From an uncultured Spirochaetales bacterium (GTDB lineage: Bacteria; Spirochaetota; Spirochaetia; Treponematales; Breznakiellaceae), in assembly GCA_964541755.1 (NCBI GenBank), contig CAZIRF010000048.1, forward strand, positions 1 through 19,587: a stretch of 19,587 nucleotides of DNA. Reading direction: 5' to 3'. The position numbers were made by a program, and so were the translations under genes. Shown piece after piece: positions 5,821-19,502 of the stretch. A model generated the notes under the pieces. The model did not search any database and was not told where the DNA came from. It saw only the letters and a program-made list of their open reading frames with translations. How positions within the stretch are numbered: position 1 is the first letter of the stretch; each line of letters opens with the position of its first letter.

Positions 5821-5833
5821 ACCGGAGGACCCC

Positions 5834-7713: not shown

Positions 7714-7728
7714 CACAAAAAAAAAGAA

Positions 7729-7775
7729 GGCTGTCGCAAAAGTCACTCAAGACTTTTGCGACAGCCCCTTTTGTC
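7729..7775. terminator. Strong bidirectional rho-independent terminator. Perfect 16-bp stem GGCTGTCGCAAAAGTC / GACTTTTGCGACAGCC with loop ACTCAA. It is flanked by an A9 run upstream and CCTTTTGTC downstream.
   Basis: Direct reading. It lies between the convergent OMP gene (+) and the yjfB-like gene (-), and can terminate both. Confidence 0.85.
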
Positions 7776-7789
7776 ATGATTTACCGGTA

Positions 7790-7999
7790 CTACGCCTGCA
7801 GGTCAATGTTTTGACCGAGGGCGGGGTCCGCGAACGACTCTTGCATCATCCCGACCACAGCGGCGCCCTGATTTTCGGCGCTGTCCATGGCCATCTTCTG
7901 CACCTGCATGCCGGCGCTCTGGATGAGATCCATCCGGGAAAGGCTTGTCGAAAGCTGTGCGATATCCATGCCTCCAATATACGGCATCGAAACCGACAA
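7790..7999 (-). CDS. yjfB: YjfB-like putative motility protein, small (59-69 aa).
   Basis: The sequence MDIAQLSTSLSRMDLIQSAGMQVQKMAMDSAENQGAAVVGMMQESFADPALGQNIDL matches the YjfB-family pattern (MDIAaLSm.mSq...q....v.K.AmD...). The TTG at 7999 has an AGGGAGG SD 6 nt upstream and would add MSVSMPYIGG. The family-typical start is the ATG at 7969, whose GGAGG is only 1 nt away. The start is therefore ambiguous. Confidence 0.55.
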   Translation of the reverse strand: MSVSMPYIGGMDIAQLSTSLSRMDLIQSAGMQVQKMAMDSAENQGAAVVGMMQESFADPALGQNIDLQA

Positions 8000-8000
8000 A

Positions 8001-8861
8001 TCAATCCTCCCTCTGGCGTATCAGGCGAATCTTGTCCCACACAAAGAGGCCCAGTGCAGCAGTCGCGACCGCACAGAGCAAAACGACGGCAATGCCCAAT
8101 TCTGCAAGGAGGGCCATCCCCAGGGCGCCGAAGGCCGCCGCAAGTATTTCCAACGCGGCCGGGGGGAGTTGCTCGACCAATGAGAGCGATATGGTACAGA
8201 AGGAGTTCTGCTCGCTGTAATCGCCCAGAGAGACCCCCAAGTCCTGTATCTGCCCCTCGATTTCAAGGATCTTGGTCTCGAGGGCCACCAGATCCGACAG
8301 GTCTGCCCCGGCTGTGCGCAGGGATTTGAGGCCGTCGCGGGTCTTTTCAAGGGAAAGACGGCTCGCCTCCAGGGCGCGATATTCGGCAGTACGGTCGCTC
8401 TTTACGATTTCAATCCCGCGAAGACGTGCGATACCCGAAAAGGCTTCAACCGTGGCGTCAAAGGCCTCGGGGACCACCCCCAGCTTGAGCGAGAGGACCC
8501 GCGAGCCGGGAAGGCCGCTCACATTCTCGCTCTGTATGACGGCGTCCGCCTTGCGCGCGAGGGCTCGGATCTCCTCGTTGTCCTTCTCGAAATTTGGGCT
8601 CGAAAGACGCACGGAGGCAACCCGCTCGTACTTCTGGTCGACGACCTGGCTCCCGCCCCCTTGGGCAATGACGATTTTCTCGCTGGCGTAATTGGCCTTG
8701 CTCCGCGACGAGGGCATGCTGTTCTGCACCATGTTGTCAAACCCGAAAACATCCTGCGGTGAGCGAAAGACCGAGACGAGCTCCGCGACAAAAAAACCGG
8801 CAAAAAGGACAAGATAGACGAGAATGGCCGCCTGGATGGCGCGTTTCACGGATTTTTTCAC
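8001..8861 (-). CDS. DUF4349-like bitopic membrane protein. N-terminal TM/signal anchor, central coiled-coil region, C-terminal TM. 286 aa.
   Basis: N-terminal hydrophobic helix (AIQAAILVYLVLFAGFFVA). Heptad-like central region (LSDLVALETKILEIEGQIQDLGVSL). C-terminal TM (ILAAAFGALGMALLAELGIAVVLLCAVATAALGLFVW). The DUF4349 call is from memory. GTG start at 8861 with AGGAG 5 nt upstream. The stop lies 1 nt before the yjfB TTG. Confidence 0.5.
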   Translation of the reverse strand: MKKSVKRAIQAAILVYLVLFAGFFVAELVSVFRSPQDVFGFDNMVQNSMPSSRSKANYASEKIVIAQGGGSQVVDQKYERVASVRLSSPNFEKDNEEIRALARKADAVIQSENVSGLPGSRVLSLKLGVVPEAFDATVEAFSGIARLRGIEIVKSDRTAEYRALEASRLSLEKTRDGLKSLRTAGADLSDLVALETKILEIEGQIQDLGVSLGDYSEQNSFCTISLSLVEQLPPAALEILAAAFGALGMALLAELGIAVVLLCAVATAALGLFVWDKIRLIRQRED

Positions 8862-8963: not shown

Positions 8964-9935
8964 TCAGCCGTGATCGTCCCCCTCTTCTTCCTCACCGGAG
9001 AGTATGCGGGTATCCACGAGGGCGGCACGATCCTTGAGGGAAGAGGAGAAACTGATACCGGGGGCGGCCGTCTCGCCCCGCGCGGGGATGAGTATGTCCT
9101 CGCCCGTGCGGGGGTTCTTGACGACGCGGGGCTTGCGCGGGGGTCGCAGCTTGAGCGAGAGGCGGCCGATGCGTCCCAAAGAGACCCGTTCGCCCAAGAG
9201 GAGCCCCGATTCCACGGTGGACAGGAAGTCCGCGACCAGCTGGCGGGTACGCGTAATGGTAAGGCCGTTCTTGCCGGCAATGTAGCGGGCCATGGCGTTG
9301 AGCGTGAACTGTTCGGTCCCGCCGGCGCCGTCCTGACGGGTCATGGTAAGGTCCCGGTTGAGTTTCATGAAGCCATTGGTGATGAAGATACCCGCCTCGC
9401 GTATGCGCTTTTCCTGTTCGCCGGCATCGAGGCGGGCGGGACAGACGGCGATGCGGTAGAGCTTCGAGGTGGACTGCAGGGGGCCGGCGCGGAAGAGGAG
9501 GGGCTTGTCGCGTGCAGGGGCTTCGGCGAGGACGGCTCCTTCGCCGGATACTATTGAAGGAACATCGCTGCGCAGCTTGATGGACGCATACTCGAGGCTG
9601 CGCCCGAAGCCTTCGCCGGGGGGGCCGCCTTCGGGCGCCGCCGCGGGCCCCAAGGTAACGAGGGAGCCGGAGTAGGTCAGGGCTATGAGGGCCCGGCCGT
9701 CGTCCGGGGGAAGGGAAGCGCAATCTTCCAGTTCAAGAAGGTGCGACTGGCTCTCCCATAGTTCGAATTTTGCGAGCCAGTTGGCCGCGAGCTGCTCGCG
9801 CAGAACATCGGCACCCGCTCCGTCGCCACTGGACAGGGCAGCGGCCAAGGCAGATGCAGTAGCGGTATCGGCCAGTAGCCCGTCAATTTGGGCTTGAATT
9901 TCTTCGGGGAGTGTCCCGAACACGTTTTTGGTCAT
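8964..9935 (-). CDS. Two-domain protein of 323 aa. An N-terminal domain of unknown function (about 200 aa) is fused to a C-terminal HU/IHF-type DNA-binding domain and an acidic tail (EEEEGDDHG).
   Basis: C-terminal HU fold: LTITRTRQLVADFLSTVESGLLLGERVSLGRIGRLSLKLRPPRKPRVVKNPRTGEDILIPARGETAAPGISFSSSLKD. Compare the HU consensus ...[28 protein letters not shown]...F..GK.LKD. The N-terminal domain is paralogous to CDS 10421..10948. ATG at 9935 with GGGGG 6 nt upstream. Confidence 0.75.
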   Translation of the reverse strand: MTKNVFGTLPEEIQAQIDGLLADTATASALAAALSSGDGAGADVLREQLAANWLAKFELWESQSHLLELEDCASLPPDDGRALIALTYSGSLVTLGPAAAPEGGPPGEGFGRSLEYASIKLRSDVPSIVSGEGAVLAEAPARDKPLLFRAGPLQSTSKLYRIAVCPARLDAGEQEKRIREAGIFITNGFMKLNRDLTMTRQDGAGGTEQFTLNAMARYIAGKNGLTITRTRQLVADFLSTVESGLLLGERVSLGRIGRLSLKLRPPRKPRVVKNPRTGEDILIPARGETAAPGISFSSSLKDRAALVDTRILSGEEEEGDDHG

Positions 9936-9950
9936 TGAAGACCCCCTTTT

Positions 9951-10298
9951 TTACTGCCCGGGGACAGCACTTATCTTGAGCTCGGTCTTCCCCACGAGGA
10001 CGGTGTCCCCGGCAGCGAGAAGCCGTTTTTCCATCTTTTGCAGGGGTTTGCCGTTGACGAAGGTCCCGTTGGTGCTGTTGAGGTCTTTGATGGTATACTC
10101 GCCCTGGGAAAACTCCACGAGGGCGTGGCGCCTGGAGACGAGGCTGTCGCCGGTGATGACAATGTCGCAGCCCTCCTCCCGACCAATGAGAAAGCGCTTG
10201 GGGATGAAGATCGATCGGTCACGGAAGCGCATGGAGAGGCTCTTTTCCTTGGTTTCGCGCGCCTTGGGGCTGCGCTTGTATACTGTCGAATCGTCCAT
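9951..10298 (-). CDS. Small soluble FHA-domain protein (about 115 aa; 93 aa if it starts at the ATG at 10232).
   Basis: Canonical FHA motifs: FLIGREEGCDIVITGDSLVSRRHALVEFSQGEYTIKDLNSTNGTFVNGKPL (G-R, SxxH, NG). The track ORF start at 10442 would run through the divergent promoter and the neighbouring gene's RBS. I prefer the ATG at 10298, which has a weak SD. The ATG at 10232 is the alternative. Confidence 0.7.
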   Translation of the reverse strand: MDDSTVYKRSPKARETKEKSLSMRFRDRSIFIPKRFLIGREEGCDIVITGDSLVSRRHALVEFSQGEYTIKDLNSTNGTFVNGKPLQKMEKRLLAAGDTVLVGKTELKISAVPGQ

Positions 10299-10374
10299 AT
10301 CTTCGATGATACGACGCTTTTTGCCAGTCGGCAATGTTCTTGTTGCCCAAATGCGTGCGTCGGGGGCAAGTGCT

Positions 10375-10384
10375 GTGTTATATT
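10375..10384 (+). promoter_or_regulatory. Candidate extended -10 promoter element TGtTATATT for the plus-strand gene at 10421. It lies in the divergent intergenic region.
   Basis: A TGn+TATATT match sits about 37 bp upstream of the ATG. No clear -35. The region also carries TTGCC/GGCAA half-sites (see findings). Confidence 0.3.
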
Positions 10385-10420
10385 GTGTGCAAGGCGTTTT
10401 GCCGAAAAAAGGAGAACAGC

Positions 10421-10948
10421 ATGGGAGAACGATTCGATTCACTGCCCCCGTACATCCAGGATCACATCCGCCAGCTCGTCAAACCCTCGGGCCTTCCCGA
10501 AGGCGACGAGAGTCTCGAGGCCCTTGCCGGTGCCTGGAACGAGAAACAGGAGCTGTTCGCACAAGAGGCGGCCACTCACGATATGGAGGAAGTCGACTTC
10601 TTTGCAAAGACGGAAGAGCGCGGCGCCCTGGCCATGACCTGGTCGGGATCCCTGGTAAACATCGGCCCGCTGGTCGACGGGAAGCGCGTCTGCGAGTACA
10701 GCTCCATCGGGCTGCGCAAGGATGTCCCCGACAGCGCCAAGGAAGAGGAGAGTGCCCTCGAAGCCGATCTCGAGAGCGATGCGGTCGCCGCCTTTGCCAA
10801 GGGTCCGGTGCGAAAGACGAGCCCCCTGCTCAAGATCGCCGTATTCAAGAAGGAAATGCCCCCCGCCGTCGAGGAGGAAGAACTCGCCGCCCTTACCCAG
10901 GTAATTGGCGACAGCTTCGTGGAAGTAAACAAGACCGTAATCCGCTAA
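10421..10948 (+). CDS. Acidic protein of unknown function, 175 aa. It is a stand-alone paralogue of the N-terminal domain of the HU-fusion protein at 8964..9935.
   Basis: Alignable blocks with the HU-fusion N-domain: F(D/G)(S/T)LP..IQ..I..L; LAGAWNEKQELFAQE vs LAANWLAKFELWESQ; ALAMTWSGSLVNIGP vs ALIALTYSGSLVTLGP; EYSSIGLRKDVP vs EYASIKLRSDVP; LLKIAVF vs LYRIAVC; IGDSFVEVNK vs IFITNGFMKLNR. Strong SD AAGGAG 6 nt upstream of the ATG at 10421. The track ORF starts at a TTG 29 codons earlier with no RBS. Confidence 0.7.
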   Translation: MGERFDSLPPYIQDHIRQLVKPSGLPEGDESLEALAGAWNEKQELFAQEAATHDMEEVDFFAKTEERGALAMTWSGSLVNIGPLVDGKRVCEYSSIGLRKDVPDSAKEEESALEADLESDAVAAFAKGPVRKTSPLLKIAVFKKEMPPAVEEEELAALTQVIGDSFVEVNKTVIR

Positions 10949-10967
10949 GGCGCAAGGGGACAGGTAC

Positions 10968-12869
10968 ATGGCAGAGGAACCCGTTTTCATAGGCAAGTAC
11001 CGCTTGCTCAATCTCGTGGCGAAAGGGGGGATGGGGGCCGTCTACAAGGCGGTCCACCCCACCCTCAAGCGCGAAGTCATACTCAAGAAGCTCACCGTAC
11101 GCAATGCCCAGTTCATCGAACGCTTCAAACGCGAAGCGGCCATCATGATGGACTTCAAGCACGACAACATCGTTGCGGTCTGGGACCACTTCAAGGAGGG
11201 TGCCTCGTACTATATCGCCCTCGAGTACGTCGACGGCTTTTCACTGGGAGATCTCGTCAAGAGGGAGCGGGCCCTCCCCTCATCCCTGGCCATGTACCTC
11301 TTCCTGCACGTTTGCCGCGCCCTCAAGTACGCCCACGACCGCGGCGTTATCCACCGCGACATCAAGCCCGCCAACGTCCTGCTCTCCCGCTCGGGAGAGA
11401 TCAAGCTCGCAGACTTTGGCATAGCCACCCGCGACAACGAGACCGATACGGGGCTCACCACCCAGGGCATGACCCTGGGGACCCCTTCCTACATGCCCCC
11501 CGAACAGTTCGAAAACTCCAAGAGTGTCGACAAGTGCGCCGATATCTACGCCATGGGGGTCATGCTCTACGAAATGGTCACCGGCAAGAAGCCCTTCCCC
11601 GGCAACTTCGCCCCGGACACCATCGCCAAGATCCAGAAGGGCCAGTACCTGCGGGTCCAGCGTATCAATCCCAAGGTGGATCGTACGGTGGTCCGCCTCT
11701 GCCAAAAGATGATACGCCCCAAGAAGGAGCAGCGCTACCAGGACCTCGCGCCGGTCATACGCATCCTCGAACGCCGCCTCAAACAGGAGGATTTCGCAGA
11801 GGAAAAGGACCGCCTCCACGCCCTCATGAACCGGCGCCCCTTTACCCCAAAGAGAAAGCCCCGAAAAATGCTGCGCCGCATACTCTCCATCGCCCTTCCA
11901 TCGGCGGCAATCCTCGCCATCGGCCTCTCGCTCATTGTCTCGAGCGGCATCTTCCGCGGCTGGTTTCAGGCACATGACTGGGGGCGCCTCCGCGTCGAAG
12001 TGGCCCGCCCCGCGAAACAGGAGGAAGCCCTCCCCGTTTCCATCAAACTCTACACCGAAAAGAACGGCGAGCTCTCCTATCTGCAAAACCTCGAGATTCC
12101 GGGCCCCTGGCAGCGCACAAAGAGCTCGCTCACAGCCCTCCTGCCCGAAAACCGCCAAACAAATACAGATCAACTCTCTACCGACAGCGTATATTTGCCT
12201 GCCGGCTGGTACCGGCTCAAGATACAGACGGGGAACAAAGTCCTGTGGGATTCGGTGTACCTTGAACCGCTCGTTGTTCAGCGTATGCAGGGCCGCGGAG
12301 CGGGCCTGATTCTCGACTACGAGCCGGGCGAGGCCATCCCCAAGCCGGTTACCTTCAGCTTCGCCATACGCGATGAACGCCTCAAATCGGACATCACCGC
12401 GCAGTGTGACATTCTCTTCCAGACAAAGGCGGGCGCATGGGTCCCCTTCGAGCGCTTCCCCGAATCCGAACGCCTCTCCGGGCGTGTCTTTCGCATACGC
12501 GTAGCCGCGAAGGGCTACGACAGCCGCGTATTCTCGCTCTTGGTGGAACCGGGGCAAACGGAGCTGGGCATACAGGCCTCCCTCGCCCCGCTTACCGCCA
12601 CCCTCGTCCTCAAGACCGGCCTTTCGCGCGTATCCTTTACCCTCAACGACCAGAAGGCCGTGCTTTCCGGTACACAGGAGCGCCGCCTCGTCCCCCTGCG
12701 CCTCTCGCGCGGCGAAGAACTCAAACTGGAACTGCCACCGGGCAGCTGGGCCATTGCCAGCGGCTCGGGTAGCGACGAAGAGCGCATGGAATTGCAGCTG
12801 GCCCCCGGGGAAACCCGCAGGGTGGAGTTTTACCGGGACGATGGCAGCCGCACCATACAGTTGCGTTGA
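10968..12869 (+). CDS. Hanks-type Ser/Thr protein kinase, 633 aa. Cytoplasmic kinase domain, one TM helix, and a roughly 300-aa extracytoplasmic beta-rich domain (possibly PEGA/Ig-like repeats, not PASTA).
   Basis: Gly-loop AKGGMGAVYKA, catalytic Lys in VILKKL, catalytic loop HRDIKPANVLL, DFG (LADFGIA), activation-segment GTPSYMPPEQ. TM LSIALPSAAILAIGLSLIVSSGIF. C-terminal motifs LPAGWYRLKI, AAKGYDSRVFSL and LPPGSWAIA are reminiscent of PEGA domains. Confidence 0.9.
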   Translation: MAEEPVFIGKYRLLNLVAKGGMGAVYKAVHPTLKREVILKKLTVRNAQFIERFKREAAIMMDFKHDNIVAVWDHFKEGASYYIALEYVDGFSLGDLVKRERALPSSLAMYLFLHVCRALKYAHDRGVIHRDIKPANVLLSRSGEIKLADFGIATRDNETDTGLTTQGMTLGTPSYMPPEQFENSKSVDKCADIYAMGVMLYEMVTGKKPFPGNFAPDTIAKIQKGQYLRVQRINPKVDRTVVRLCQKMIRPKKEQRYQDLAPVIRILERRLKQEDFAEEKDRLHALMNRRPFTPKRKPRKMLRRILSIALPSAAILAIGLSLIVSSGIFRGWFQAHDWGRLRVEVARPAKQEEALPVSIKLYTEKNGELSYLQNLEIPGPWQRTKSSLTALLPENRQTNTDQLSTDSVYLPAGWYRLKIQTGNKVLWDSVYLEPLVVQRMQGRGAGLILDYEPGEAIPKPVTFSFAIRDERLKSDITAQCDILFQTKAGAWVPFERFPESERLSGRVFRIRVAAKGYDSRVFSLLVEPGQTELGIQASLAPLTATLVLKTGLSRVSFTLNDQKAVLSGTQERRLVPLRLSRGEELKLELPPGSWAIASGSGSDEERMELQLAPGETRRVEFYRDDGSRTIQLR

Positions 12870-12896
12870 CGATCGAAACAAGGAGATCATACTGAT

Positions 12897-13802
12897 ATGA
12901 CCAACGCCATCCGCCGCCTCATCATCATTTGCATGGGGCTCGCCGCCGGGCTCTGCGCCTGGCCCCTCGTGGAACTCGTCCTCGCCTCGCAGGAGGCCTT
13001 TCCCTCATACTTCCTCTACTCAAGCGCCATCGGCAGCCTCGTGGGCGCAATCCTGGGGGCCTTCTTCGCCGCAGCCGGCGGACTCTGCGACCGCGCCCCC
13101 GGAAAGGCCCTCGACGGGGCCTGGAAGGGCGCCCTAGCCGGCCTCGCGGGGGGCGTCCTCTCGACCCTCGTCGCCCAAGGCTTGCTCTTTTACTTTGGCG
13201 ACCGTTTCCTCTACCGCCAGAGTCCCGACGGCTTTACCGAAGGCAACAGCAACACAGCGCTCCTCATCGCGCAAGCTGCCGGCTGGCTCGTCGTCGGGGC
13301 GGCCATCGGAATAGCGGAAGGGCTGCGGGCCAAATCGGCCCGCAAGGTCGCCCTGGGATTTATCGGCGGCATTGCGGGAGGGGGCCTCGGGGGGCTTCTC
13401 TTTACCTGGCTCACTATCAAGGCCCCCGACTTCAATCCGGGCCGCCTCCTGGCCCTTATGCTTATGGGGGGGCTTATCGCCGTTTTCTACGCCCTCTTGG
13501 AACGGCGTTTTGCGGTGGGAAGCCTCAAGGTATTGAACGGGCCCCTCAAGGGCAAGGAATTCCTTGTAAACCAGCGCCGCCTTCGGCTGGGAAGCGACAG
13601 TGCCTGCGACATAGTCCTTGCCGGGTATCGCGATGTGGCCGCCCACCATGGCGAGCTCATCGTCAAAAAAGGCGAGCTCGTCCTGCGCCGCGGGGAGCGG
13701 GTGGTCATCGTCAACGACCGCGAAACGGCCGGGCAAACGCTCAAGCTCGATGACGTCATCAAGCTGGGAAGCGCGACCTTCCTCTACGGCTACTTCGGCT
13801 AG
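12897..13802 (+). CDS. Polytopic membrane protein (about 5 Gly/Ala-rich TM helices) with a C-terminal cytoplasmic FHA-like domain. 301 aa.
   Basis: Hydrophobic Gly-rich segments through residue 200 or so. C-terminal KVLNGPLKGKEFLVNQRRLRLGSDSACDIVLAGYRDVAAHHGELIVKKGELVLRRGERVVIVNDRE is a divergent FHA (G..R..LGS...DIVL......HH.E). AAGGAG lies 11 nt upstream of the ATG. Confidence 0.65.
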   Translation: MTNAIRRLIIICMGLAAGLCAWPLVELVLASQEAFPSYFLYSSAIGSLVGAILGAFFAAAGGLCDRAPGKALDGAWKGALAGLAGGVLSTLVAQGLLFYFGDRFLYRQSPDGFTEGNSNTALLIAQAAGWLVVGAAIGIAEGLRAKSARKVALGFIGGIAGGGLGGLLFTWLTIKAPDFNPGRLLALMLMGGLIAVFYALLERRFAVGSLKVLNGPLKGKEFLVNQRRLRLGSDSACDIVLAGYRDVAAHHGELIVKKGELVLRRGERVVIVNDRETAGQTLKLDDVIKLGSATFLYGYFG

Positions 13803-13812
13803 GGAGCAGAAT

Positions 13813-15426
13813 ATGACACAGACGACAAAGAGAAGATCAATACTGATAGTCCTGGCGGCCCTTCTTGCGGCCGGCCCGATTTCTTCCCTGGCGGCAAACG
13901 GGACAGACAGCGCCACGGATGCGGGCAAGACGGCCGGCCGCAGTAACCCGCTTACGGTGGGCATTACCCAAATCGACACCTCGCGTCTCATGGCCTTCCA
14001 GCGCAACCGGCTCTACATACGGGCCTTGAGCCCCCGCGGCGAGGTCCTCGAGGCCCCGGACCTCCTGGGCTCGGAGCAAACTATCAGCCTTGATGTGCAT
14101 GAGTCCTCCGACGGCATTCACTTTGTTCGGGCAGGACGGGCTCAGGTTCAAAGGGCCCACCCCCGGGATGCGGGTATTTCCTTTCTGTTTCTCGTGGACA
14201 ACTCGCTGTCCATGTACAATCAAACCCTGGTCACCTCCGATGGCAGGGAAGGCGCGAGCAGGGCAGAAGCGGCAAATGAGGCCGCGAAGCGCTTTCTCCT
14301 GTCGATAAGCTCTGCCAGGGACAAGGTGGGGTTGGCAAGTTTCAACACCCGCTACGAGCTGGTCCTGTCTCCCACGGCAAATCTCGACGAGAGCGGTCCC
14401 GCCCTCGACCGCATTGTGGAACCCGGCCCGGATGACGGCTATACAGAGCTCTATGCGGGCCTCGTACTCGCTTCGCGCGATCTGGGAGAGGTCTCCGGGC
14501 GGCGAGCCCTCGTCGTCCTGTCCGATGGCGAGAATTTCCCCTGGCACGGCAAACGGGGGAGCCCCAGCCCGGTTTTCGGCGAAAAGGACTGGCGGGCCGA
14601 CGAGGCCCTCGAGGAGGCGGTACGGCAGGGGGTAACGGTCTTCGCCATCCACTTTGGCACCGAACGCGACGATCACTTGTCGCAGTTGGCCCGCGCCAGC
14701 GGGGGCCAGGTCTTCAATGCATCCAACGATGAAGAACTCGCCGGGGTCTACTCGACCATTCGCGACAACATTCGCCGCGAGCTCCTGCTTGAGTACCGCG
14801 CCCTCATGCTCGAAGGAGATCGGCGCTGGGTACGCCTCGTACCGGCTGCAGAGGGGCAGGAAATCGGAACCGCATCACCAGTGGCGCCGGGCGCGCGGGC
14901 GGGAGACCGCTACTACTATACAGGGACGGTCTTCGGAGCCGCAGGCACCGCGCTTTCGCCCTGGTTCTTGCTTCTTGTCCCGCTGGCCCTCCTCTTCCCC
15001 CTCGTCATGGCCCTCATTCCCTTCGAGAAGCCCAGCATGTCTGCCAATCTCTCGCTCCTCTACGCAACGGGGGCCGGACGCGGCACCAAGGTCTTCGCAG
15101 TGGGAGACCGTACCGTCATCGGGGCCGATGCCCGAGCCGATGTCACGATAGTGGGCAACACCCGTCTGGAGGAAAGCCCGGTAACCATCATTCGCGACGA
15201 GCGGACGGGCTCCTACACCATTAAAAGCAGCGAGGCGATAACGGTCAACAACCGGCAAGTGCGCGAAAAGACGCTCGTAAACGGGGATGTGATCAATGCC
15301 GATGGCACCCTGGTGGTCTTCGACGACAACGATGGAAGCGTCATTCAGGGGAAAGGGCTCCTCGCACGCATGAAACGCTTTTTGGCAGGCCAGGGTGGAA
15401 AACAAAAGGCCCGCAAGGGGAAATAA
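13813..15426 (+). CDS. Secreted von Willebrand factor type-A (vWA) domain, single TM helix, then a C-terminal cytoplasmic FHA-like domain. 537 aa.
   Basis: Signal peptide MTQTTKRRSILIVLAALLAAGPISSLAANG. vWA with MIDAS-like DxSxS (LFLVDNSLSM), then ...GYTELYAGLVLASRDL..., ALVVLSDGENF, VTVFAIHFGTERDDHLSQLARASGGQVFNASNDEEL. TM ALSPWFLLLVPLALLFPLVMALIPF. FHA-like KVFAVGDRTVIGADARADVTIVGNTRLEESPVTIIRDERTGSYTIKSSEAITVNNRQV. GGGAG lies 7 nt upstream of the ATG at 13813. The track ORF's upstream extension overlaps the previous gene and looks spurious. Confidence 0.8.
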   Translation: MTQTTKRRSILIVLAALLAAGPISSLAANGTDSATDAGKTAGRSNPLTVGITQIDTSRLMAFQRNRLYIRALSPRGEVLEAPDLLGSEQTISLDVHESSDGIHFVRAGRAQVQRAHPRDAGISFLFLVDNSLSMYNQTLVTSDGREGASRAEAANEAAKRFLLSISSARDKVGLASFNTRYELVLSPTANLDESGPALDRIVEPGPDDGYTELYAGLVLASRDLGEVSGRRALVVLSDGENFPWHGKRGSPSPVFGEKDWRADEALEEAVRQGVTVFAIHFGTERDDHLSQLARASGGQVFNASNDEELAGVYSTIRDNIRRELLLEYRALMLEGDRRWVRLVPAAEGQEIGTASPVAPGARAGDRYYYTGTVFGAAGTALSPWFLLLVPLALLFPLVMALIPFEKPSMSANLSLLYATGAGRGTKVFAVGDRTVIGADARADVTIVGNTRLEESPVTIIRDERTGSYTIKSSEAITVNNRQVREKTLVNGDVINADGTLVVFDDNDGSVIQGKGLLARMKRFLAGQGGKQKARKGK

Positions 15427-15431
15427 CAGAT

Positions 15432-16433
15432 TTAGCTGGCGGGCTCTCCCAGCGAGACAATCCCCGACCAGGGGTCGAAGGGCTGGCCCGGCAGAATGAA
15501 GGCGGCCTGCATGAGGGCTGCATTGTGGATCTGGATGAAGCGGCCATCCGCACGCAGGTAAAACCGCTCGCGTGAGGGGCGGTGCCCGCCTATCATGACG
15601 CCGGGCTTGACCGATTCGGAAAAGAAGGAGCGGAAGGTTTCCTCGACGGCGCCTTCCACCGCCTGCCCGATGTCCGTCCAGGTAAGTGCCTCGACAATAT
15701 CGCCATCGAGCCGCGCGTTTACCACTTCTTCGACCGAAAGCGGGAATGCGGGTTCTGCGTGGCAGGCCAAAAAGCCCCCGCCGCGGGCCATGAGGGGCAA
15801 GGTGTCTTCAAAGGCGGCATAGGTCTCGAAAAAATCGGCACCCAGGATGCGAAAGGTCCAATCGGCGGCCATCTCGCCTTCGGAGGCGAACTTCCCGTAG
15901 GGGTGGTCCCCCTCCCCTTCCCGATTGCGAATGTTGTCGTGATTCCCCTTAAGAAAGAAAAAGCGCCCCGGATACGCCGCGACAAGACGCGACACATGGG
16001 CCATGGCGGTAAAGGCCAGCGACATCTCCTCGCGCATGGCGGCGTCTGTTTTCCAGCCCTCTTGGTACTCGAGCCAGGCGGCGCGCCAGCGTTCCTTGCC
16101 GGCGAGGCCCTCGCTGTGCGGCCCGTCCCCCAACATGACGACTTGGATGCGACCTGCCTCGAGGGCATCACGCACGGTACGGGGCTCGCTTCCTGCCGTT
16201 TGCGGTGGTATCAGCCAGGACTCCAGGGCGTCCAGGACCGCTGGACGGGCGTGGAGATCCGGGAGAATCAGGCAGGGAAGCCCCGGGTCAAGCTCAATGA
16301 GCGCACCGGGTTCACCATCTCTTCGCACGGGGCGTATAGCTGCCGGCAGGCCAAGCAATGCCTCTCGGGCGGCGTCGAAAGCCCGTTGCCAATCCTTTCT
16401 TTTCGTTGGCAAATCATCACTTTTTTGTGGCAC
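15432..16433 (-). CDS. Calcineurin-like metallophosphoesterase (PPP-family-like phosphoprotein phosphatase), 333 aa.
   Basis: Metallophosphoesterase motif order: LILPDLHARP (a degenerate GDxHG), VVMLGDGPH, FFLKGNHDN (GNHD/E), further downstream His residues. GTG start at 16433 with AGGAG 5 nt upstream. Ser/Thr-phosphatase specificity is inferred from context (adjacent STK/FHA locus). Confidence 0.6.
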   Translation of the reverse strand: MPQKSDDLPTKRKDWQRAFDAAREALLGLPAAIRPVRRDGEPGALIELDPGLPCLILPDLHARPAVLDALESWLIPPQTAGSEPRTVRDALEAGRIQVVMLGDGPHSEGLAGKERWRAAWLEYQEGWKTDAAMREEMSLAFTAMAHVSRLVAAYPGRFFFLKGNHDNIRNREGEGDHPYGKFASEGEMAADWTFRILGADFFETYAAFEDTLPLMARGGGFLACHAEPAFPLSVEEVVNARLDGDIVEALTWTDIGQAVEGAVEETFRSFFSESVKPGVMIGGHRPSRERFYLRADGRFIQIHNAALMQAAFILPGQPFDPWSGIVSLGEPAS

Positions 16434-16495
16434 GAATGCTCCTCATGCCACCAGTATACCACCTTGTGTGCGCTACGCCAGAGTCTGATTGCGTT

Positions 16496-17434
16496 TCAAT
16501 TGAGGTCAAGGCTGATAGCGATGGCGGCGGGGCTCACCAAAAGGCGATAAGGGGGTTTTTGCCAGCCCTGCCCCGCTGCGACCGCCGTCCTGTCGGCAGA
16601 ATCCCGTCCGCTTCCCCGGACGCGGTGCAGCATGGGCACCAGGAAGCCTGCCGCCGATCCGACGAGTGCCCCAACGATGACGTCGCTGGCGAAGTGGCTG
16701 CCGCTGGCAACGCGCAAAATGGCGGTAGATAGTGCGAAGCCGTATGAACCGCCAATCACCACCCATCGCCAGGGCGAATCGGGGAAATACGCGGCAAAGC
16801 TGTAGCTGGCAAAACCCGCACCGGCAAAGGCCATGCTCGTATGGCCGGAGGGAAAGGAATCAAACCAATCCTCCCGGGTATCGCTGTCATCGGGGTATCC
16901 GTCTGCATAGAGGTAGGGACGCGCACGGGCGAAAAGGGTCTTGCCGGTCTCCTTGAGGCCCCAGGCCAAAAGGGCCGTCTCGAGGTACATCGCGCCGATG
17001 GTCACCCAGTCCCCGACCGGCGCTGCCGCGAGGGCTGCAGGGGCGAAGAAAGCCGCAAATTGGGTGATGTCGGAAATCGTATCGAGGGTGCCGTTATAGG
17101 CTGCCAGAAAGGCCCGGTCAAAACCCCATACCTCGGAAGGATCGAAGGGGGGAAGTGCGGCGGGCCCGGAAGCCCTGTCGACAACAAAGGGCACGAGATT
17201 GAGACCGATAACCGCCCCCGCGAATGACAGGTCCACCGCAGGGTTCAAGGCAAAGCAGGTACGCGAGCCCAAGAGCCAGTTGGCACCTGGCGCCGCCTCA
17301 AGCGTGGGCGCCCCCAAAGGGGCTGGTGCTGTGGTGGGTGCGGGCTCTATGGCGGGTGAAGACTCTGCGGCGGGCAGATTGACCAAAACGATGATTGCGA
17401 GGCAAACAATACAGAAAAATCGTTTCAATTGCAT
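16496..17434 (-). CDS. PAP2-superfamily (type 2 phosphatidic-acid/lipid phosphatase) secreted or membrane-associated protein, 313 aa, starting at MQLKRFFCIV.
   Basis: PAP2 motifs KxxxxxxRP (KETGKTLFARARP), PSGH (FPSGHTS) and SRxxxxxHxxxD-like (SGSHFASDV). N-terminal signal peptide followed by an Ala/Pro-rich linker. I chose the ATG at 17434. The track ORF extends 106 codons upstream through low-complexity GC-rich sequence. Confidence 0.75.
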   Translation of the reverse strand: MQLKRFFCIVCLAIIVLVNLPAAESSPAIEPAPTTAPAPLGAPTLEAAPGANWLLGSRTCFALNPAVDLSFAGAVIGLNLVPFVVDRASGPAALPPFDPSEVWGFDRAFLAAYNGTLDTISDITQFAAFFAPAALAAAPVGDWVTIGAMYLETALLAWGLKETGKTLFARARPYLYADGYPDDSDTREDWFDSFPSGHTSMAFAGAGFASYSFAAYFPDSPWRWVVIGGSYGFALSTAILRVASGSHFASDVIVGALVGSAAGFLVPMLHRVRGSGRDSADRTAVAAGQGWQKPPYRLLVSPAAIAISLDLN

Positions 17435-17844: not shown

Positions 17845-19101
17845 TCAATCAAAATCCAGCTGTGCCCCAAATACCCAGCCTTCCCTCTTGTTGGGAAGAC
17901 GAATCTTGTACCAACAGTCCTCGACCCCATCTACATAATCCTTGAACTCGCTATGTTCGAGTACCGTACACTTTTGGCCCTGACGAAGCAGCTTGAGTGT
18001 CTTTCCATCAATGCTTCCATGGTCCCGAAGCACTGCCCCCTTAACGGTAATGGTTGCTTGATAGCTTATCTCGAAGACAAGCAATCCTCCAATGTCTTCA
18101 CCGGCCTCATTTTTGTACCCCCCATAGGCAATAACATGGCGACCGTTCGGGCTTACCGCGTAATCATCAACTATATAGCACCCCGTCTCGTGTACTCTAC
18201 CTTTGGTGTCCAGGATATCAAGACTCATGGAATCACTACTGGGGTAGGGACTGTAGGGCCCAATAAAATGTTCGGGGCTTAATATCTCCCACCTTATATA
18301 TCTTGTACCAATATTGTAGTAGCCAATTGACAGCCGATTCTTTGGATCCAATACTTCAACTTCACGACCTTCCCAGATTCCATCATGGTTTCGATGCCCA
18401 AAAAGAATCTTTGATTCTTTTTCATGAATAGAAAACCAAGTAAAGAGCTTGTCATTATATCCATAGAGAAATTCATAATTGACCGGTGATCCATCATTAA
18501 ATGTATAAAAGAGTTTCTCGAAGGTAGAGTATTCATGGAGCTTTTTGGGGTTGATATAACCAAGATTGAGCCCCTCGGGGACTGTTACTTCCTCTCCCCG
18601 TCGATATGCCACTCCAGCGCTTCCATGCAAATTGTAATAGTATCTATAATTCAATGGCCTCTTATTGCGAAGCGGAAACCCAGCATAAGAATAATCATCG
18701 AGATAAGGGCTCTCATCGTGAAGTTCGACAATTTCATCCAAATCTGGATCAAATATCGCTGGTTGTTTCCCGTTTACGAAGAAATACAATTTGTTGTTAT
18801 ATGTGGAAAAACCTTCTACACCCATTCTACCAACTGACTTCCCTCCTGGTGCGATATATCTATGAATACTTGAAGGATCTGAAAACTTTCGTATATAAAT
18901 ACCCTCTTTCATATCGCTTAGTTTATAGTAGACCATCTCTGCGAAGTAGTCATTGCCAATTGAGTATAGTTTATTAAGCCGTGAATAGGAGCCTCCACAA
19001 TAGACCAGCTTTGCCGATACTGGTGGGACTTCTTCCCTCGCACACCCCGATACTATCAGGGCAAGATAAATTGCTGTGCATACGGCGGCAATTTTTTCCA
19101 T
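17845..19101 (-). CDS. Lipoprotein, Tyr-rich and probably beta-rich (beta-propeller-like) N-terminal region, with a C-terminal SH3b-like (bacterial SH3) domain. 418 aa. Lies in an AT-richer segment.
   Basis: Lipobox LALIVSGC after an N-terminal signal peptide. Recurrent beta-strand-like motifs (NKLYFFVNG, DKLFTWFSI, SKILFGH, HVIAYGGYKN). C-terminus GKTLKLLRQGQKCTVLEHSEFKDYVDGVEDCWYKIRLPNKREGWVFGAQL resembles SH3_3/SH3b. The GC content is visibly lower than the rest of the window. Confidence 0.6.
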   Translation of the reverse strand: MEKIAAVCTAIYLALIVSGCAREEVPPVSAKLVYCGGSYSRLNKLYSIGNDYFAEMVYYKLSDMKEGIYIRKFSDPSSIHRYIAPGGKSVGRMGVEGFSTYNNKLYFFVNGKQPAIFDPDLDEIVELHDESPYLDDYSYAGFPLRNKRPLNYRYYYNLHGSAGVAYRRGEEVTVPEGLNLGYINPKKLHEYSTFEKLFYTFNDGSPVNYEFLYGYNDKLFTWFSIHEKESKILFGHRNHDGIWEGREVEVLDPKNRLSIGYYNIGTRYIRWEILSPEHFIGPYSPYPSSDSMSLDILDTKGRVHETGCYIVDDYAVSPNGRHVIAYGGYKNEAGEDIGGLLVFEISYQATITVKGAVLRDHGSIDGKTLKLLRQGQKCTVLEHSEFKDYVDGVEDCWYKIRLPNKREGWVFGAQLDFD

Positions 19102-19502
19102 TCTTCATATCCTCCCGGATTGCTTCTTCGAGCAATCTCCAACATTTTCTGCTTTTCTACCGGGCTGGCCTTCGGGTACCACTCCCGCAAATAGGGTAGC
19201 ACGGTATCCGCACCCATAGCCGCAAAACTGGCACTCTCGAATAGATTGTTCGCCCGCATCACTGTCAACATCTCGCTCGTAAAGCTCTGGCCTAAAGCCT
19301 CAATCGGCTGACCGAAAAACCTCTCCATGAAGGCTTCCGACTGCATGTAAGCCGCTCTGTTTTCCGGATTATTGCGACCTTTAAAAGTATGCCCCCCATA
19401 CACTTCAACTGCAGGCCCTGCGCTCGTAATGGTATAACCTGCCCCATCCAAGTAGTCGGTAGGATCCGTGTAGATACCTGTTTCTTCATCTTTTACCTCC
19501 AT
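19056..19502 (-). CDS. Hypothetical protein, 148 aa. Its 3' end overlaps the start of the lipoprotein gene by 46 nt. Same AT-richer segment.
   Basis: It is the longest ORF in this region. The amino-acid composition looks protein-like (MEVKDEETGIYTDPTDYLDGAGYTITSAGPAVEVYGGHTFKGRNNPENRAAYMQSEAFMERFFGQPIEALG...). I recognise no family. A second ATG 14 nt downstream in another frame has a better SD (GGAGG 6 nt upstream) but gives only 65 aa. Confidence 0.4.
   Translation of the reverse strand: MEVKDEETGIYTDPTDYLDGAGYTITSAGPAVEVYGGHTFKGRNNPENRAAYMQSEAFMERFFGQPIEALGQSFTSEMLTVMRANNLFESASFAAMGADTVLPYLREWYPKASPVEKQKMLEIARRSNPGGYEEWKKLPPYAQQFILP

What the first reader, a model, noticed from the sequence alone, without database searches (positions are those of the whole stretch)
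9951..17434. Ser/Thr phospho-signalling island: one Hanks kinase, three FHA proteins in three topologies, a PPP-type phosphatase and a PAP2 lipid phosphatase
Within 7.5 kb lie five signalling genes. There is a receptor-type STK with a roughly 300-aa beta-rich ectodomain (PEGA/Ig-like, not PASTA). There is a multi-TM protein ending in an FHA domain. There is a protein with a secreted vWA domain, one TM and a cytoplasmic FHA, which is an outside-in adaptor architecture. There is a small soluble canonical FHA protein. Convergent on the end of the cluster is a calcineurin-like metallophosphoesterase, followed by a PAP2 phosphatase. The combination kinase + vWA + FHA + phosphatase recalls the PpkA(vWA)-Fha1-PppA threonine-phosphorylation checkpoint of type VI secretion. 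Here, however, the vWA is on the FHA protein rather than the kinase, and the phosphatase is PPP-like rather than PP2C. No T6SS structural genes are present. Instead the locus is wired to an HU-domain protein pair, a DUF4349 membrane protein and a YjfB-like motility protein. This may be a self-contained, undescribed envelope-to-nucleoid or envelope-to-motility signalling module. Both divergent FHA domains lack the fully canonical NG/SxxH motifs, so they may be pseudo-FHA or have altered specificity.
Basis: partly seen in the sequence, partly recalled or inferred. Interest (0 to 1): 0.7.

Follow-up and report, generated by a model that had tools for sequence, protein, structure and literature searches.

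The report
Spirochaete membrane kinase–phosphatase signalling module
The cluster is a real gene module conserved across spirochaetes: a membrane Ser/Thr kinase, a PP1-like phosphatase, two membrane scaffold proteins and an unknown 175-residue protein whose sister copy is fused to a DNA-binding HU domain.

Summary

Comparison of 12 loci with usable flanks, from several spirochaete lineages, redraws the unit:
- **Invariant core (12/12):** hyp175 (unknown 175-aa protein) → Hanks kinase → 6TM-FHA-like protein → periplasmic vWA-TM-FHA-like protein.
- **Metallophosphoesterase (9/12):** it sits inside the operon in six loci. Its profile and its AlphaFold model match only PP1/PP2A/PP5-type protein phosphatases.
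- **HU-fusion (7/12):** a protein of hyp175-like domain plus HU domain lies divergently upstream.
- **Small canonical FHA protein (4/12).**
- **PAP2, DUF4349 and YjfB:** found only in this window, so they are accidental neighbours.

The two membrane FHA domains lack the Arg, Ser and Asn-Gly residues that bind phosphothreonine. They are fused into one polypeptide in three relatives, so they probably work as one scaffold.

The hyp175 domain has no Pfam family and no clear structural neighbour in the PDB. Only 197 sequence clusters carry it among 1.84 billion representatives.

No type VI secretion genes occur in or beside any locus.

Best reading: a self-contained envelope-sensing phospho-relay whose likely output is the hyp175/HU pair. 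It is a new variant of the known kinase + FHA + vWA + phosphatase theme. The output step is inference.

The parts
8964..9935 (-). HU-fusion protein (323 aa): an N-terminal hyp175-like domain plus a C-terminal HU/IHF DNA-binding domain. Proposed output element.
   Evidence: Bac_DNA_binding E 4.5e-11 at residues 214-302. The N-terminal domain is 30% identical to hyp175, E 4e-15. It lies divergently upstream of the core in 7 of 12 loci. 17 of 32 long-form family members carry PF00216. The RNPxTG arm motif is readable in the sequence.
9951..10298 (-). Small soluble canonical FHA protein (115 aa). Accessory phosphothreonine reader.
   Evidence: PF00498 E 2.9e-22. The GR, SRRH and STNGT motifs are intact. 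Adjacent to the core in 4 of 12 loci, and the first gene of the six-gene operon in L019.
10299..10420 (.). 122-bp divergent intergenic region between the sFHA/HU-fusion unit and the hyp175-kinase operon. Presumed shared promoter region.
   Evidence: Gene coordinates. One sigma-70-like match on the minus strand at 10334-10306. This is consensus-level evidence only.
10421..10948 (+). hyp175: a 175-aa cytoplasmic protein of an undescribed domain family. First gene of the core operon.
10968..12869 (+). Receptor-type Hanks Ser/Thr kinase (633 aa): kinase domain, one TM segment, and a periplasmic beta-rich domain of about 300 aa.
   Evidence: Pkinase E 2e-52. The VILK Lys, HRDIKPAN, DFG and PPE motifs can be read directly. 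TM segment at about residues 302-320. No Pfam hit on the ectodomain. 12 of 12 loci.
12897..13802 (+). Six-TM, glycine-rich membrane protein (301 aa) with a cytoplasmic FHA-like domain that lacks the phosphothreonine-binding residues.
   Evidence: Yop-YscD_cpl E 8.8e-15. Six hydrophobic segments. Motif loss shown. Fused to the next gene in L008, L009 and P0076. 12 of 12 loci.
13813..15426 (+). Signal peptide, periplasmic vWA domain with a complete MIDAS site, one TM segment, and a cytoplasmic FHA-like domain (537 aa).
   Evidence: VWA_2 E 1.3e-12. Invariant D129-x-S131-x-S133 and D238, with T211 nearly invariant. Hydrophobic segments at residues 10-28 and about 373-410. The C-terminal profile hits FHA structures. 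12 of 12 loci.
15432..16433 (-). Divergent PPP-like (PP1/PP2A-fold) metallophosphatase (333 aa). The module's phosphatase, here relocated to a convergent position.
   Evidence: The family profile hits almost only PPP phosphatases. AF2 pLDDT 91.5. The Foldseek top 50 are all PP1/PP2A/PP5/PPZ1, E about 1e-9. Invariant D59, H61, D103, N164, H165, H225; H284 nearly invariant. Adjacent in 9 of 12 loci and in-operon in six.

Best explanation
This is a spirochaete-specific, self-contained transmembrane Ser/Thr phospho-signalling module.

**Shown**
- The invariant core is one operon: hyp175 -> receptor Hanks kinase -> 6TM-FHA-like protein -> periplasmic vWA-TM-FHA-like protein.
- It is usually accompanied by a divergent PP1-fold phosphatase.
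- It is often accompanied by a divergently transcribed protein that fuses a hyp175-like domain to an HU DNA-binding domain.
- It is sometimes accompanied by a small canonical FHA protein.

**Inferred mechanism**
1. The kinase ectodomain and the MIDAS-competent vWA domain both face the periplasm and together sense an envelope or periplasmic ligand.
2. The two membrane proteins form one complex. Their FHA-like domains have lost the phosphothreonine-contacting residues, so they act as phospho-independent scaffolds of the YscD type, holding the kinase and its cytoplasmic partners at the membrane.
3. The active kinase autophosphorylates and phosphorylates cytoplasmic targets. The PPP-like phosphatase resets the state.
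4. Where present, the small canonical FHA protein reads the phosphothreonine marks.

**Most speculative step**
The output is the hyp175 / HU-fusion pair. The two paralogous domains associate, and phosphorylation or membrane sequestration of hyp175 changes how the HU-fusion binds DNA. That would couple envelope state to nucleoid or gene expression.
For: **Co-conservation**
- The core order is present in 12 of 12 loci with flanks. These include a Spirochaetota MAG, Alkalispirochaeta, Spirochaetaceae and Leptonemataceae genomes, plus metagenome contigs.
- The phosphatase is adjacent in 9 of 12 loci and lies between hyp175 and the kinase in six. The HU-fusion is divergent upstream in 7 of 12.

**Physical coupling of the two membrane proteins**
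- They form a single ORF in L008 and L009, and in the 777-aa protein P0076.
- In these fusions the vWA signal sequence becomes a seventh TM segment. This keeps both FHA-like domains cytoplasmic and the vWA domain periplasmic.

**Component competence**
- Kinase catalytic motifs are intact.
- The vWA MIDAS residues are invariant or nearly so.
- The phosphatase metal ligands and catalytic His are invariant or nearly so. Both its sequence profile and its fold point to PPP phosphatases.
- The membrane FHA-like domains lack the Arg of GR, the Ser of SxxH and the NG loop, whereas the small FHA keeps all three.

**Output link**
- hyp175 and the HU-fusion N-terminal domain are paralogues.
- The family is tiny and recurs as a fusion to HU.

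**Exclusions**
- There are no defence-system hits apart from generic kinase models.
- No T6SS genes occur in the window, its left flank or any locus whose genes were read.
Against: - No experimental data exist for any member. All homologues found are unnamed, 'hypothetical', or carry only generic domain or family labels.
- The output step has no direct evidence. The HU-fusion is adjacent in only 7 of 12 loci, and nothing shows that hyp175 is a kinase substrate or binds the HU-fusion.
- The small FHA is adjacent in only 4 of 12 loci, and the phosphatase is missing from the neighbourhood in 3 of 12. Neither may be obligatory, or they may be encoded elsewhere in those genomes.
- The kinase ectodomain is not conserved throughout. 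The Leptonemataceae kinase ends just after its TM segment (371-aa ORF), which weakens a universal ectodomain-sensing model.
- Topologies rest on a hydropathy script, not on a dedicated predictor.
- The phosphatase's substrate class cannot be settled in silico. TM-scores to PP1 are moderate (0.5-0.65), and the Pfam Metallophos score is below its cutoff.
Confidence: 0.6

Rival explanations
1. It is a threonine-phosphorylation checkpoint for a secretion or envelope machine, like PpkA-PppA-Fha1 of type VI secretion or the FHA-like SctD/YscD and EssC scaffolds. The machine itself would be encoded elsewhere in the genome.
For: The membrane FHA-like domains score best against the T3SS YscD cytoplasmic-domain model. 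The small FHA gives a sub-cutoff hit to the T6SS TagH model TIGR03354 (60.7 bits against a 120.25 cutoff). The kinase + vWA + FHA + phosphatase content recalls the H1-T6SS regulators (PMC3224232).
Against: No secretion-system gene was seen in the window, in the flanks read around it, or in the related loci whose genes were read. In this module the vWA domain is not on the kinase, and the phosphatase is PPP-like rather than PP2C. The only recurrent extra partner is an HU-domain protein, not a structural machine component. From general knowledge, T6SS has not been described in Spirochaetota.
Confidence: 0.1
2. The six-TM glycine-rich protein is a channel or transporter, and the module regulates transport. 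The kinase, phosphatase and FHA-like domains would gate it, as PknF gates the FHA-bearing ABC exporter Rv1747. hyp175 and the HU-fusion would be bystanders or a separate regulator.
For: There are six hydrophobic, Gly-rich segments with no recognisable family. The protein is strictly coupled to a periplasmic ligand-binding vWA domain, to the point of gene fusion. A precedent for FHA-regulated transporters exists (PMC3138270).
Against: The six-TM region matches no transporter or channel family at any threshold. hyp175 is the most conserved gene and the first gene of the core operon in 12 of 12 loci, which is hard to reconcile with a bystander role.
Confidence: 0.15
3. It is an anti-phage or conflict system built from a kinase, a phosphatase and a vWA protein.
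For: The kinase domain matches PADLOC PD-T4-6 and mad6 models and NCBIfam MADS6. vWA proteins are common in conflict systems (PMC7159879).
Against: Those hits cover only the generic Hanks catalytic domain, and no other module protein matches PADLOC. The conflict systems in PMC7159879 are built around MoxR-vWA-VMAP, and neither MoxR nor VMAP is present. The gene order is stable and identity is 30-60% across distant spirochaete lineages, in varied housekeeping neighbourhoods. No effector domains or mobile-element contexts recur across loci.
Confidence: 0.05
4. The adjacency is accidental: unrelated signalling genes that happen to lie together in this genome.
For: PAP2, DUF4349 and YjfB occur beside the module only in this window.
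Against: The four-gene core recurs in 12 of 12 loci. The phosphatase (9/12) and the HU-fusion (7/12) recur, and gene fusions link two members.
Confidence: 0.02

Closest known systems
Sulfolobus archaellum regulatory network: ArnA (FHA) / ArnB (vWA) with kinases ArnC/ArnD and the PPP-type phosphatase PP2A (PMC6509490, PMC7472852)
   Same: It combines an FHA protein, a vWA protein, a Hanks-type kinase and a PPP-family (not PP2C) phosphatase. The FHA and vWA partners form a complex whose state is set by phosphorylation and dephosphorylation, and the output is gene expression.
   Different: ArnA and ArnB are soluble cytoplasmic proteins, and ArnA's FHA is a functional phospho-binder. Here the vWA domain is periplasmic, and FHA and vWA lie on one membrane-spanning polypeptide. 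The membrane FHA domains lack the phospho-binding residues. The module also has a 6TM partner, the hyp175 domain and an HU-fusion. The phosphatase is a distinct, highly divergent family.
Pseudomonas aeruginosa H1-T6SS threonine phosphorylation pathway: PpkA-PppA-Fha1 (PMC3224232; the details of PpkA's periplasmic vWA domain are from general knowledge)
   Same: A transmembrane Hanks kinase, a periplasmic vWA domain, an FHA protein and an antagonistic phosphatase are encoded together.
   Different: In that system the vWA domain is on the kinase itself, the phosphatase is PP2C, and the genes sit inside a T6SS cluster. None of these holds here.
Deinococcus radiodurans DRA0331-DRA0334 operon: vWA, transmembrane STPK, FHA, PP2C (bioRxiv 10.64898/2026.01.23.701218)
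   Same: It is a single operon that combines a vWA protein, a membrane kinase, a stand-alone canonical FHA protein and a phosphatase acting antagonistically.
   Different: That phosphatase is PP2C with its own KI-FHA domain. The operon has no 6TM-FHA protein, no vWA-TM-FHA architecture, no hyp175 domain and no HU-fusion. No sequence relationship to it was tested here.
Eukaryotic-type PPP phosphatases (PP1/PP2A/PP5), as the fold and active-site relatives of the 333-aa protein
   Same: The fold matches: the Foldseek top 50 are all PPP. Metal-ligand and catalytic positions are conserved.
   Different: The motifs are variants: PDLHAR instead of GDxHG, GDxxHxE instead of GDxVDRG, and GNH[DE]N. Identity is only 12-17%. 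The single sequence has no PDB hit, and the Pfam score is below its cutoff.
T3SS SctD/YscD cytoplasmic FHA-like domain (Pfam PF16697)
   Same: It is a membrane-anchored FHA fold that has lost the phosphothreonine-binding residues, and it is the best-scoring Pfam model for both membrane FHA domains.
   Different: There are no T3SS genes here, the membrane topologies and partner domains differ, and NCBIfam SctD scores 25.9 bits against an 86 cutoff.

Membership tests
T6SS threonine phosphorylation pathway (PpkA/PppA/Fha1) | Encoded within or next to T6SS core genes (Hcp, VgrG, TssA-M, ClpV) | tested here: not met
   No such Pfam families appear among the called genes of the window, its left flank, or the eight related loci for which gene calls with Pfam families were returned.
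T6SS threonine phosphorylation pathway (PpkA/PppA/Fha1) | The kinase itself carries the periplasmic vWA domain | tested here: not met
   The kinase ectodomain has no vWA hit. The vWA domain is on a separate FHA-bearing protein.
T6SS threonine phosphorylation pathway (PpkA/PppA/Fha1) | PP2C-type phosphatase | tested here: not met
   The phosphatase has a metallophosphoesterase/PPP fold. The window has no PP2C gene.
T6SS threonine phosphorylation pathway (PpkA/PppA/Fha1) | TagH/Fha1-type FHA protein | tested here: not met
   TIGR03354 scores 60.7 bits against a 120.25 cutoff, and only over the FHA core.
PPP-family Ser/Thr protein phosphatase | Binuclear metal centre ligands and catalytic His (PP1 D64, H66, D92, N124, H125, H173, H248) | tested here: met
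   D59, H61, D103, N164, H165 and H225 are invariant and H284 is nearly invariant in 25 homologues. The alignments to PP1 place PDLH on GDIH, GNHD on GNHE and GHR on RAH.
PPP-family Ser/Thr protein phosphatase | Canonical signature motifs GDxHG / GDxVDRG / GNHE and a significant match to the family model | tested here: inconclusive
   The motifs are variants. Pfam Metallophos scores 20.1 bits, below the 21.5 cutoff. Profile-to-PDB E-values are only about 2e-3.
PPP-family Ser/Thr protein phosphatase | PPP fold rather than another metallophosphoesterase fold | tested here: met
   The AF2 model has pLDDT 91.5. The Foldseek PDB top 50 are all PP1/PP2A/PP5/PPZ1, E about 1e-9, TM 0.5-0.65.
PPP-family Ser/Thr protein phosphatase | Phosphoprotein phosphatase activity | not testable with these tools
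   This needs an enzyme assay. An in-operon position next to the kinase in six loci is the only indirect support.
Canonical (phosphothreonine-binding) FHA domain | Conserved Gly-Arg, Ser-x-x-His and Asn-Gly loop residues | tested here: met
   This row is for the small FHA (9951-10298): IGR, SRRH and STNGT are present, and PF00498 scores E 2.9e-22.
Canonical (phosphothreonine-binding) FHA domain | Conserved Gly-Arg, Ser-x-x-His and Asn-Gly loop residues (6TM-FHA and vWA-TM-FHA proteins) | tested here: not met
   The Arg is absent in nearly all family members, and the Ser and the NG loop are absent. In the window's vWA protein the His is also replaced. The fold assignment still holds.
vWA domain with a functional MIDAS site | DxSxS ... 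T ... D metal-ion-dependent adhesion site | tested here: met
   D129, S131, S133 and D238 are invariant and T211 is nearly invariant in 20 homologues.
Hanks-type Ser/Thr kinase (active) | Catalytic Lys, HRD, DFG and an APE-like motif | tested here: met
   VILK, HRDIKPAN, DFG and PPE can be read in the translation. Pkinase scores E 2e-52.
PknB/Stk1-type cell-wall kinase module (FhaA/FhaB-PstP-RodA-PbpA-PknB) | PASTA repeats on the kinase, a PP2C phosphatase, and adjacent RodA/PBP genes | tested here: not met
   The PknB_PASTA_kin model matches only the catalytic domain (257.9 bits against a 450 cutoff). There are no PASTA, PP2C, FtsW/RodA or transpeptidase hits in the window or the loci.
HU/IHF DNA-binding protein | A match to Bac_DNA_binding above its cutoff, with the beta-arm motif | tested here: met
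   43.3 bits against a 22.4 cutoff. 'KNPRTGEDILIPA' is present. DNA binding itself was not tested.
MoxR-vWA ternary conflict systems (PMC7159879) | An AAA+ MoxR gene and a VMAP or iSTAND third component next to the vWA gene | tested here: not met
   No AAA+/MoxR gene occurs in the window or in any related locus. The system definition was read.

The most novel reading that the evidence does not exclude
The hyp175 domain is a new protein fold that works as the phospho-regulated switch of a spirochaete-wide pathway. An envelope-facing kinase/vWA complex would control a nucleoid-associated HU-family protein, by phosphorylating or sequestering the free hyp175 paralogue that pairs with the HU-fusion's N-terminal domain. 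That would be a direct Ser/Thr-kinase-to-HU 'envelope-to-nucleoid' route, with no described counterpart in the literature library searched here.
Probability: 0.3. Interest if true: 0.75.

Novelty: new variant of a known kind. Interest (0 to 1): 0.58.

Why it matters
Signalling by Ser/Thr kinases in spirochaetes, a phylum that includes major pathogens and gut symbionts, appears to be little studied; four literature searches here found nothing on this module.

This module is a defined, phylum-wide and compact system of six to seven genes, in which every catalytic part looks active. It contains three things that could be studied directly:
- a bacterial PP1-fold phosphatase family that annotation pipelines mostly leave unnamed or label hypothetical;
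- a pair of FHA domains that have given up phosphothreonine binding and behave as one membrane scaffold;
- a small domain with no recognisable fold that is repeatedly fused to HU.

If the proposed output is right, it would show how envelope state reaches the nucleoid without a two-component system.

The comparison also has a practical use. It corrects the gene list, so that experiments are not wasted on PAP2, DUF4349 and YjfB.

Tried and rejected
- **MoxR-vWA ternary systems.** I recalled the 'ternary systems' of PMC7159879 as vWA + kinase + PP2C. Reading the paper showed they are MoxR-vWA-VMAP, so this comparison was dropped.
- **Kinase ectodomain.** Pfam on the window ectodomain found nothing even at E 10. 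Five homologous ectodomains gave only one sub-threshold CarboxypepD_reg/PEGA hit. The PEGA label stays unverified.
- **Single-sequence searches with the phosphatase.** The PDB search gave only a spurious beta-glucosidase hit, and NCBIfam gave nothing. Only the 25-sequence profile and the AF2 model were informative.
- **Genome-collection scan.** The remaining loci came from exact-protein look-ups.
- **PADLOC.** Only generic kinase hits.
- **Rfam and tRNA scans.** Nothing found in the window.
- **Organism name.** Cluster look-up gave no name for the window proteins.
- **Literature.** Four searches found no paper on this spirochaete module. The HU-superfamily survey does not contain the words kinase, phosphatase or vWA in its main text.

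Full report
**1. What is in the window**

The window is high-GC (about 0.60-0.64 over most of its length), so it contains many spurious overlapping ORFs. Gene calls on identical public contigs resolve these. The same sequence forms the end of a 228-kb metagenome contig. Its neighbours carry Treponema-named Pfam families (TP_0789-like, TP_0700).

The genes in the reported interval are:

| Window coordinates | Product | Main evidence |
|---|---|---|
| 9951-10298(-) | small FHA protein, 115 aa | PF00498 E 2.9e-22 |
| 10421-10948(+) | unannotated protein ('hyp175'), 175 aa | no family hit |
| 10968-12869(+) | Hanks kinase, 633 aa | Pkinase E 2e-52 |
| 12897-13802(+) | membrane protein with FHA-like C-terminus, 301 aa | Yop-YscD_cpl E 8.8e-15 |
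| 13813-15426(+) | vWA protein, 537 aa | VWA_2 E 1.3e-12 |
| 15432-16433(-) | metallophosphoesterase, 333 aa | Metallophos E 1e-3, below cutoff |
| 16496-17434(-) | PAP2 protein | E 1.6e-20 |

Immediately upstream on the minus strand lie three further genes:
- a 323-aa protein with a C-terminal HU domain (8964-9935);
- a DUF4349 protein (8001-8861);
- a 65-aa YjfB_motility protein (7790-7987).

**2. Topology and competence of the parts**

A hydropathy scan gives these membrane features:
- one TM segment in the kinase, at about residues 302-320;
- six hydrophobic, glycine-rich segments in the 301-aa protein;
- an N-terminal signal-like segment plus one later TM segment in the vWA protein.

This places the kinase ectodomain and the vWA domain outside the cytoplasmic membrane, and both FHA-like domains inside.

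The catalytic and binding sites look intact:
- The kinase keeps the catalytic Lys (VILK), HRDIKPAN, DFG and a PPE motif.
- In an alignment of 20 vWA-protein homologues, the MIDAS residues D129-x-S131-x-S133 and D238 are invariant, and T211 is nearly so.

The C-terminal FHA of the vWA protein is weak in the window sequence (E 3e-3). It is clear at family level, for two reasons:
- Many homologues carry precomputed PF00498/PF16697 hits.
- The family profile's best PDB hits are the FHA domains of M. tuberculosis Rv0020c (E 5e-3) and of CHFR (E 1e-2).

Alignments of the three FHA types show a sharp contrast. The small protein has the canonical GR, SRRH and STNGT motifs. Both membrane-anchored domains lack three things: the Arg (in nearly all family members), the Ser, and the Asn-Gly loop. 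Their conserved 'VNN'/'VND' corresponds to the canonical 'VNG' strand, not to the NG loop. They are FHA folds that probably cannot bind phosphothreonine in the usual way. This fits their better score against the YscD-type model.

**3. The unit, defined by comparison**

Related loci came from two sources. One was a scan of one genome per species. The other was exact look-ups of homologues on long contigs. I searched all of them with the window proteins.

Twelve loci, counting the window, have usable flanks. They include a Spirochaetota MAG, Alkalispirochaeta, Spirochaetaceae and Leptonemataceae genomes, plus several metagenome contigs.

| Component | Loci where adjacent | Notes |
|---|---|---|
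| hyp175 → kinase → 6TM-FHA → vWA-TM-FHA | 12/12 | same order in every locus |
| Metallophosphoesterase | 9/12 | between hyp175 and the kinase in six loci; convergent downstream in the window and two relatives (L021, L025) |
| HU-fusion | 7/12 | divergent upstream |
| Small FHA | 4/12 | first gene of a six-gene co-directional operon in L019 |
| PAP2, DUF4349, YjfB | 1/12 | this window only |

The closest relative with flanks (L025, about 60% identity) has the arrangement HU-fusion ← sFHA <> hyp175 → kinase → 6TM-FHA → vWA-FHA ← phosphatase. It has none of PAP2, DUF4349 or YjfB.

Identical 'longest contig' lengths across the three homologue tables point, indirectly, to about ten further contigs that carry two or three of the families together.

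Two members of the module are fused in some lineages. The 6TM-FHA and vWA-TM-FHA genes form one uninterrupted ORF in L008 and L009, and in the 777-aa protein P0076. In the fusion, the vWA signal sequence becomes a seventh TM segment. This is exactly what the inferred topology requires.

**4. The phosphatase**

On its own the sequence is nearly unrecognisable. It has no PDB hit and no NCBIfam hit, and its Pfam score is below the cutoff. Its 87 homologues are almost all unnamed or 'hypothetical'.

A 25-sequence alignment shows invariant D59, H61, R63, G102, D103, E108, N164, H165, H225 and E227, and nearly invariant H106, H284, R285 and H303.

Three lines of evidence then point to the PPP family:
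- The profile of this alignment hits almost only PPP Ser/Thr phosphatases in the PDB (PP1, PP5, BSU1), apart from one weak reductase match. E is about 2e-3, and the best match lies over the helix that leads into GNHE.
- The AlphaFold model is confident (pLDDT 91.5).
- The 50 best Foldseek matches are all PP1, PP2A, PP5 or PPZ1, with E about 1e-9 and TM 0.5-0.65.

Together with its in-operon position next to the kinase, this supports a protein-phosphatase role. Enzymatic proof is still missing.

**5. The unknown domain and the HU link**

hyp175 is the best-conserved gene of the module. It has 152 homologues of uniform length (about 175 aa) at about 50% identity between distant lineages, all unnamed. 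Invariant residues include a T-Y-S-G-S hairpin.

The domain is rare and has few architectures:
- An exhaustive HMMER search of 1.84 billion representative proteins finds only 197 clusters.
- Most are the stand-alone form. The other common form is 260-335 aa long.
- Among 32 of these long forms, 17 carry a Bac_DNA_binding (HU) domain.
- Others carry an unassigned helical C-terminus, as in P0380.
- One 701-aa protein joins a vWA-TM module directly to the hyp175 domain.

The window's HU-fusion N-terminal domain is 30% identical to hyp175 (E 4e-15). Its HU part keeps the RNPxTG arm motif.

**6. How it most likely works**

The following points are shown:
- The gene set is conserved.
- The kinase is competent.
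- The vWA domain is MIDAS-competent and predicted to be periplasmic.
- The phosphatase has a PPP fold with an intact metal site.
- The two membrane FHA-like domains lack phospho-binding residues, and their genes fuse in some lineages.
- The hyp175 domain is paralogous to the N-terminal half of an HU protein.

The following steps are inferred:
1. The kinase ectodomain and the vWA domain sense a periplasmic or envelope ligand.
2. The 6TM and vWA proteins form one scaffold that organises the kinase at the membrane.
3. The kinase and the PPP-like phosphatase set the phosphorylation state.
4. The small FHA protein, where present, reads phosphothreonine.
5. The signal leaves through the hyp175 / HU-fusion pair to DNA.

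The last step is the weakest. It rests only on gene order, paralogy and recurrent fusion.

In this window a strong bidirectional hairpin terminator at 7727-7768 follows yjfB. Here, therefore, sFHA, HU-fusion, DUF4349 and yjfB may be co-transcribed. This arrangement is not conserved in other loci.

**7. Rivals**

- **Secretion-checkpoint reading (T6SS-like).** It fails on context. No secretion genes occur in the window, its left flank, or the related loci whose genes were read. Three of the pathway's defining features are also not met.
- **Transport-gating role for the 6TM protein.** This cannot be excluded, but no family match supports it.
- **Defence system.** This is unlikely. Only the generic kinase domain matches PADLOC. 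The order is stable across distant lineages in varied housekeeping contexts.
- **Chance adjacency.** This is refuted for the core, and confirmed for PAP2, DUF4349 and YjfB.

**8. Comparison with known systems and novelty**

The theme 'Hanks kinase + FHA + vWA + phosphatase' is known in three settings:
- the P. aeruginosa T6SS pathway (PMC3224232);
- the Sulfolobus ArnA/ArnB-ArnC/D-PP2A network, which also uses a PPP phosphatase (PMC6509490, PMC7472852);
- a Deinococcus operon (bioRxiv 10.64898/2026.01.23.701218).

The spirochaete module differs from all three in several ways:
- the vWA-TM-FHA architecture;
- the 6TM-FHA partner;
- the loss of phospho-binding residues in both membrane FHA domains;
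- a very divergent bacterial PP1-fold phosphatase;
- the hyp175 domain and its fusion to HU.

Four literature searches and the HU-superfamily survey gave no description of it.

I rate it a new variant of a known kind, of moderate-to-good interest. The open questions are concrete and testable.

Noticed in passing
window 17845-19502: GC content drops to 0.416 over 18001-19000, against about 0.60-0.64 over most of the window. The segment encodes a 418-aa putative lipoprotein with a weak C-terminal SH3_3 hit and an overlapping 148-aa ORF with no family. It may be horizontally acquired. It also lies next to the module on other contigs of the same population (L003, L005).
   Followed up: partly
window 7727-7768: A strong bidirectional hairpin terminator (16-18 bp stem, T-runs on both strands) lies between the convergent genes hyp360 (+) and yjfB (-). 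It would end a minus-strand unit of sFHA, HU-fusion, DUF4349 and YjfB in this organism.
   Followed up: partly
window 906-7713: A separate envelope cluster: GntR regulator, Band_7/SPFH protein, ABC ATPase, two MacB/FtsX-type permeases, a TP_0789-like (LolA-like) protein and a 360-aa signal-peptide protein with no family. It looks like a Lol/MacB-type lipoprotein or efflux system. It is not co-conserved with the kinase module.
   Followed up: partly
P0387 (701 aa, found): One representative protein joins a signal peptide, vWA domain and TM segment directly to a hyp175-like domain and a further helical domain, with no FHA domain between them. If it is not a gene-call merge, it is a Rosetta-stone link between the vWA membrane protein and the hyp175 domain.
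   Followed up: partly
P0380, P0426 and about a dozen other long forms: A third architecture of the hyp175 domain has a C-terminal helical region of about 125 aa with no Pfam family, in place of HU. One member carries DUF2442 instead. The genomic context of these forms was not examined.
   Followed up: no
L013 7834-8949 (Leptonemataceae): The module's kinase ORF here is only 371 codons and ends just after its TM segment, so it has no ectodomain. In L008, L009 and L012 the ORF ends earlier than in the window protein. The sensing part of the kinase is evidently the most variable piece of the module.
   Followed up: partly
L016 10001-12800 (Gammaproteobacteria bacterium 53_120_T64): A distant vWA protein (23% identity) lies about 1.4 kb upstream of a Hanks kinase. 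This may be an unrelated or very distant version of the vWA-kinase pairing outside the spirochaetes.
   Followed up: no
window 16433-16496: PAP2 and the phosphatase gene are co-directional, with only a 62-nt gap, so they may be co-transcribed in this organism even though PAP2 is not conserved next to the module elsewhere.
   Followed up: no
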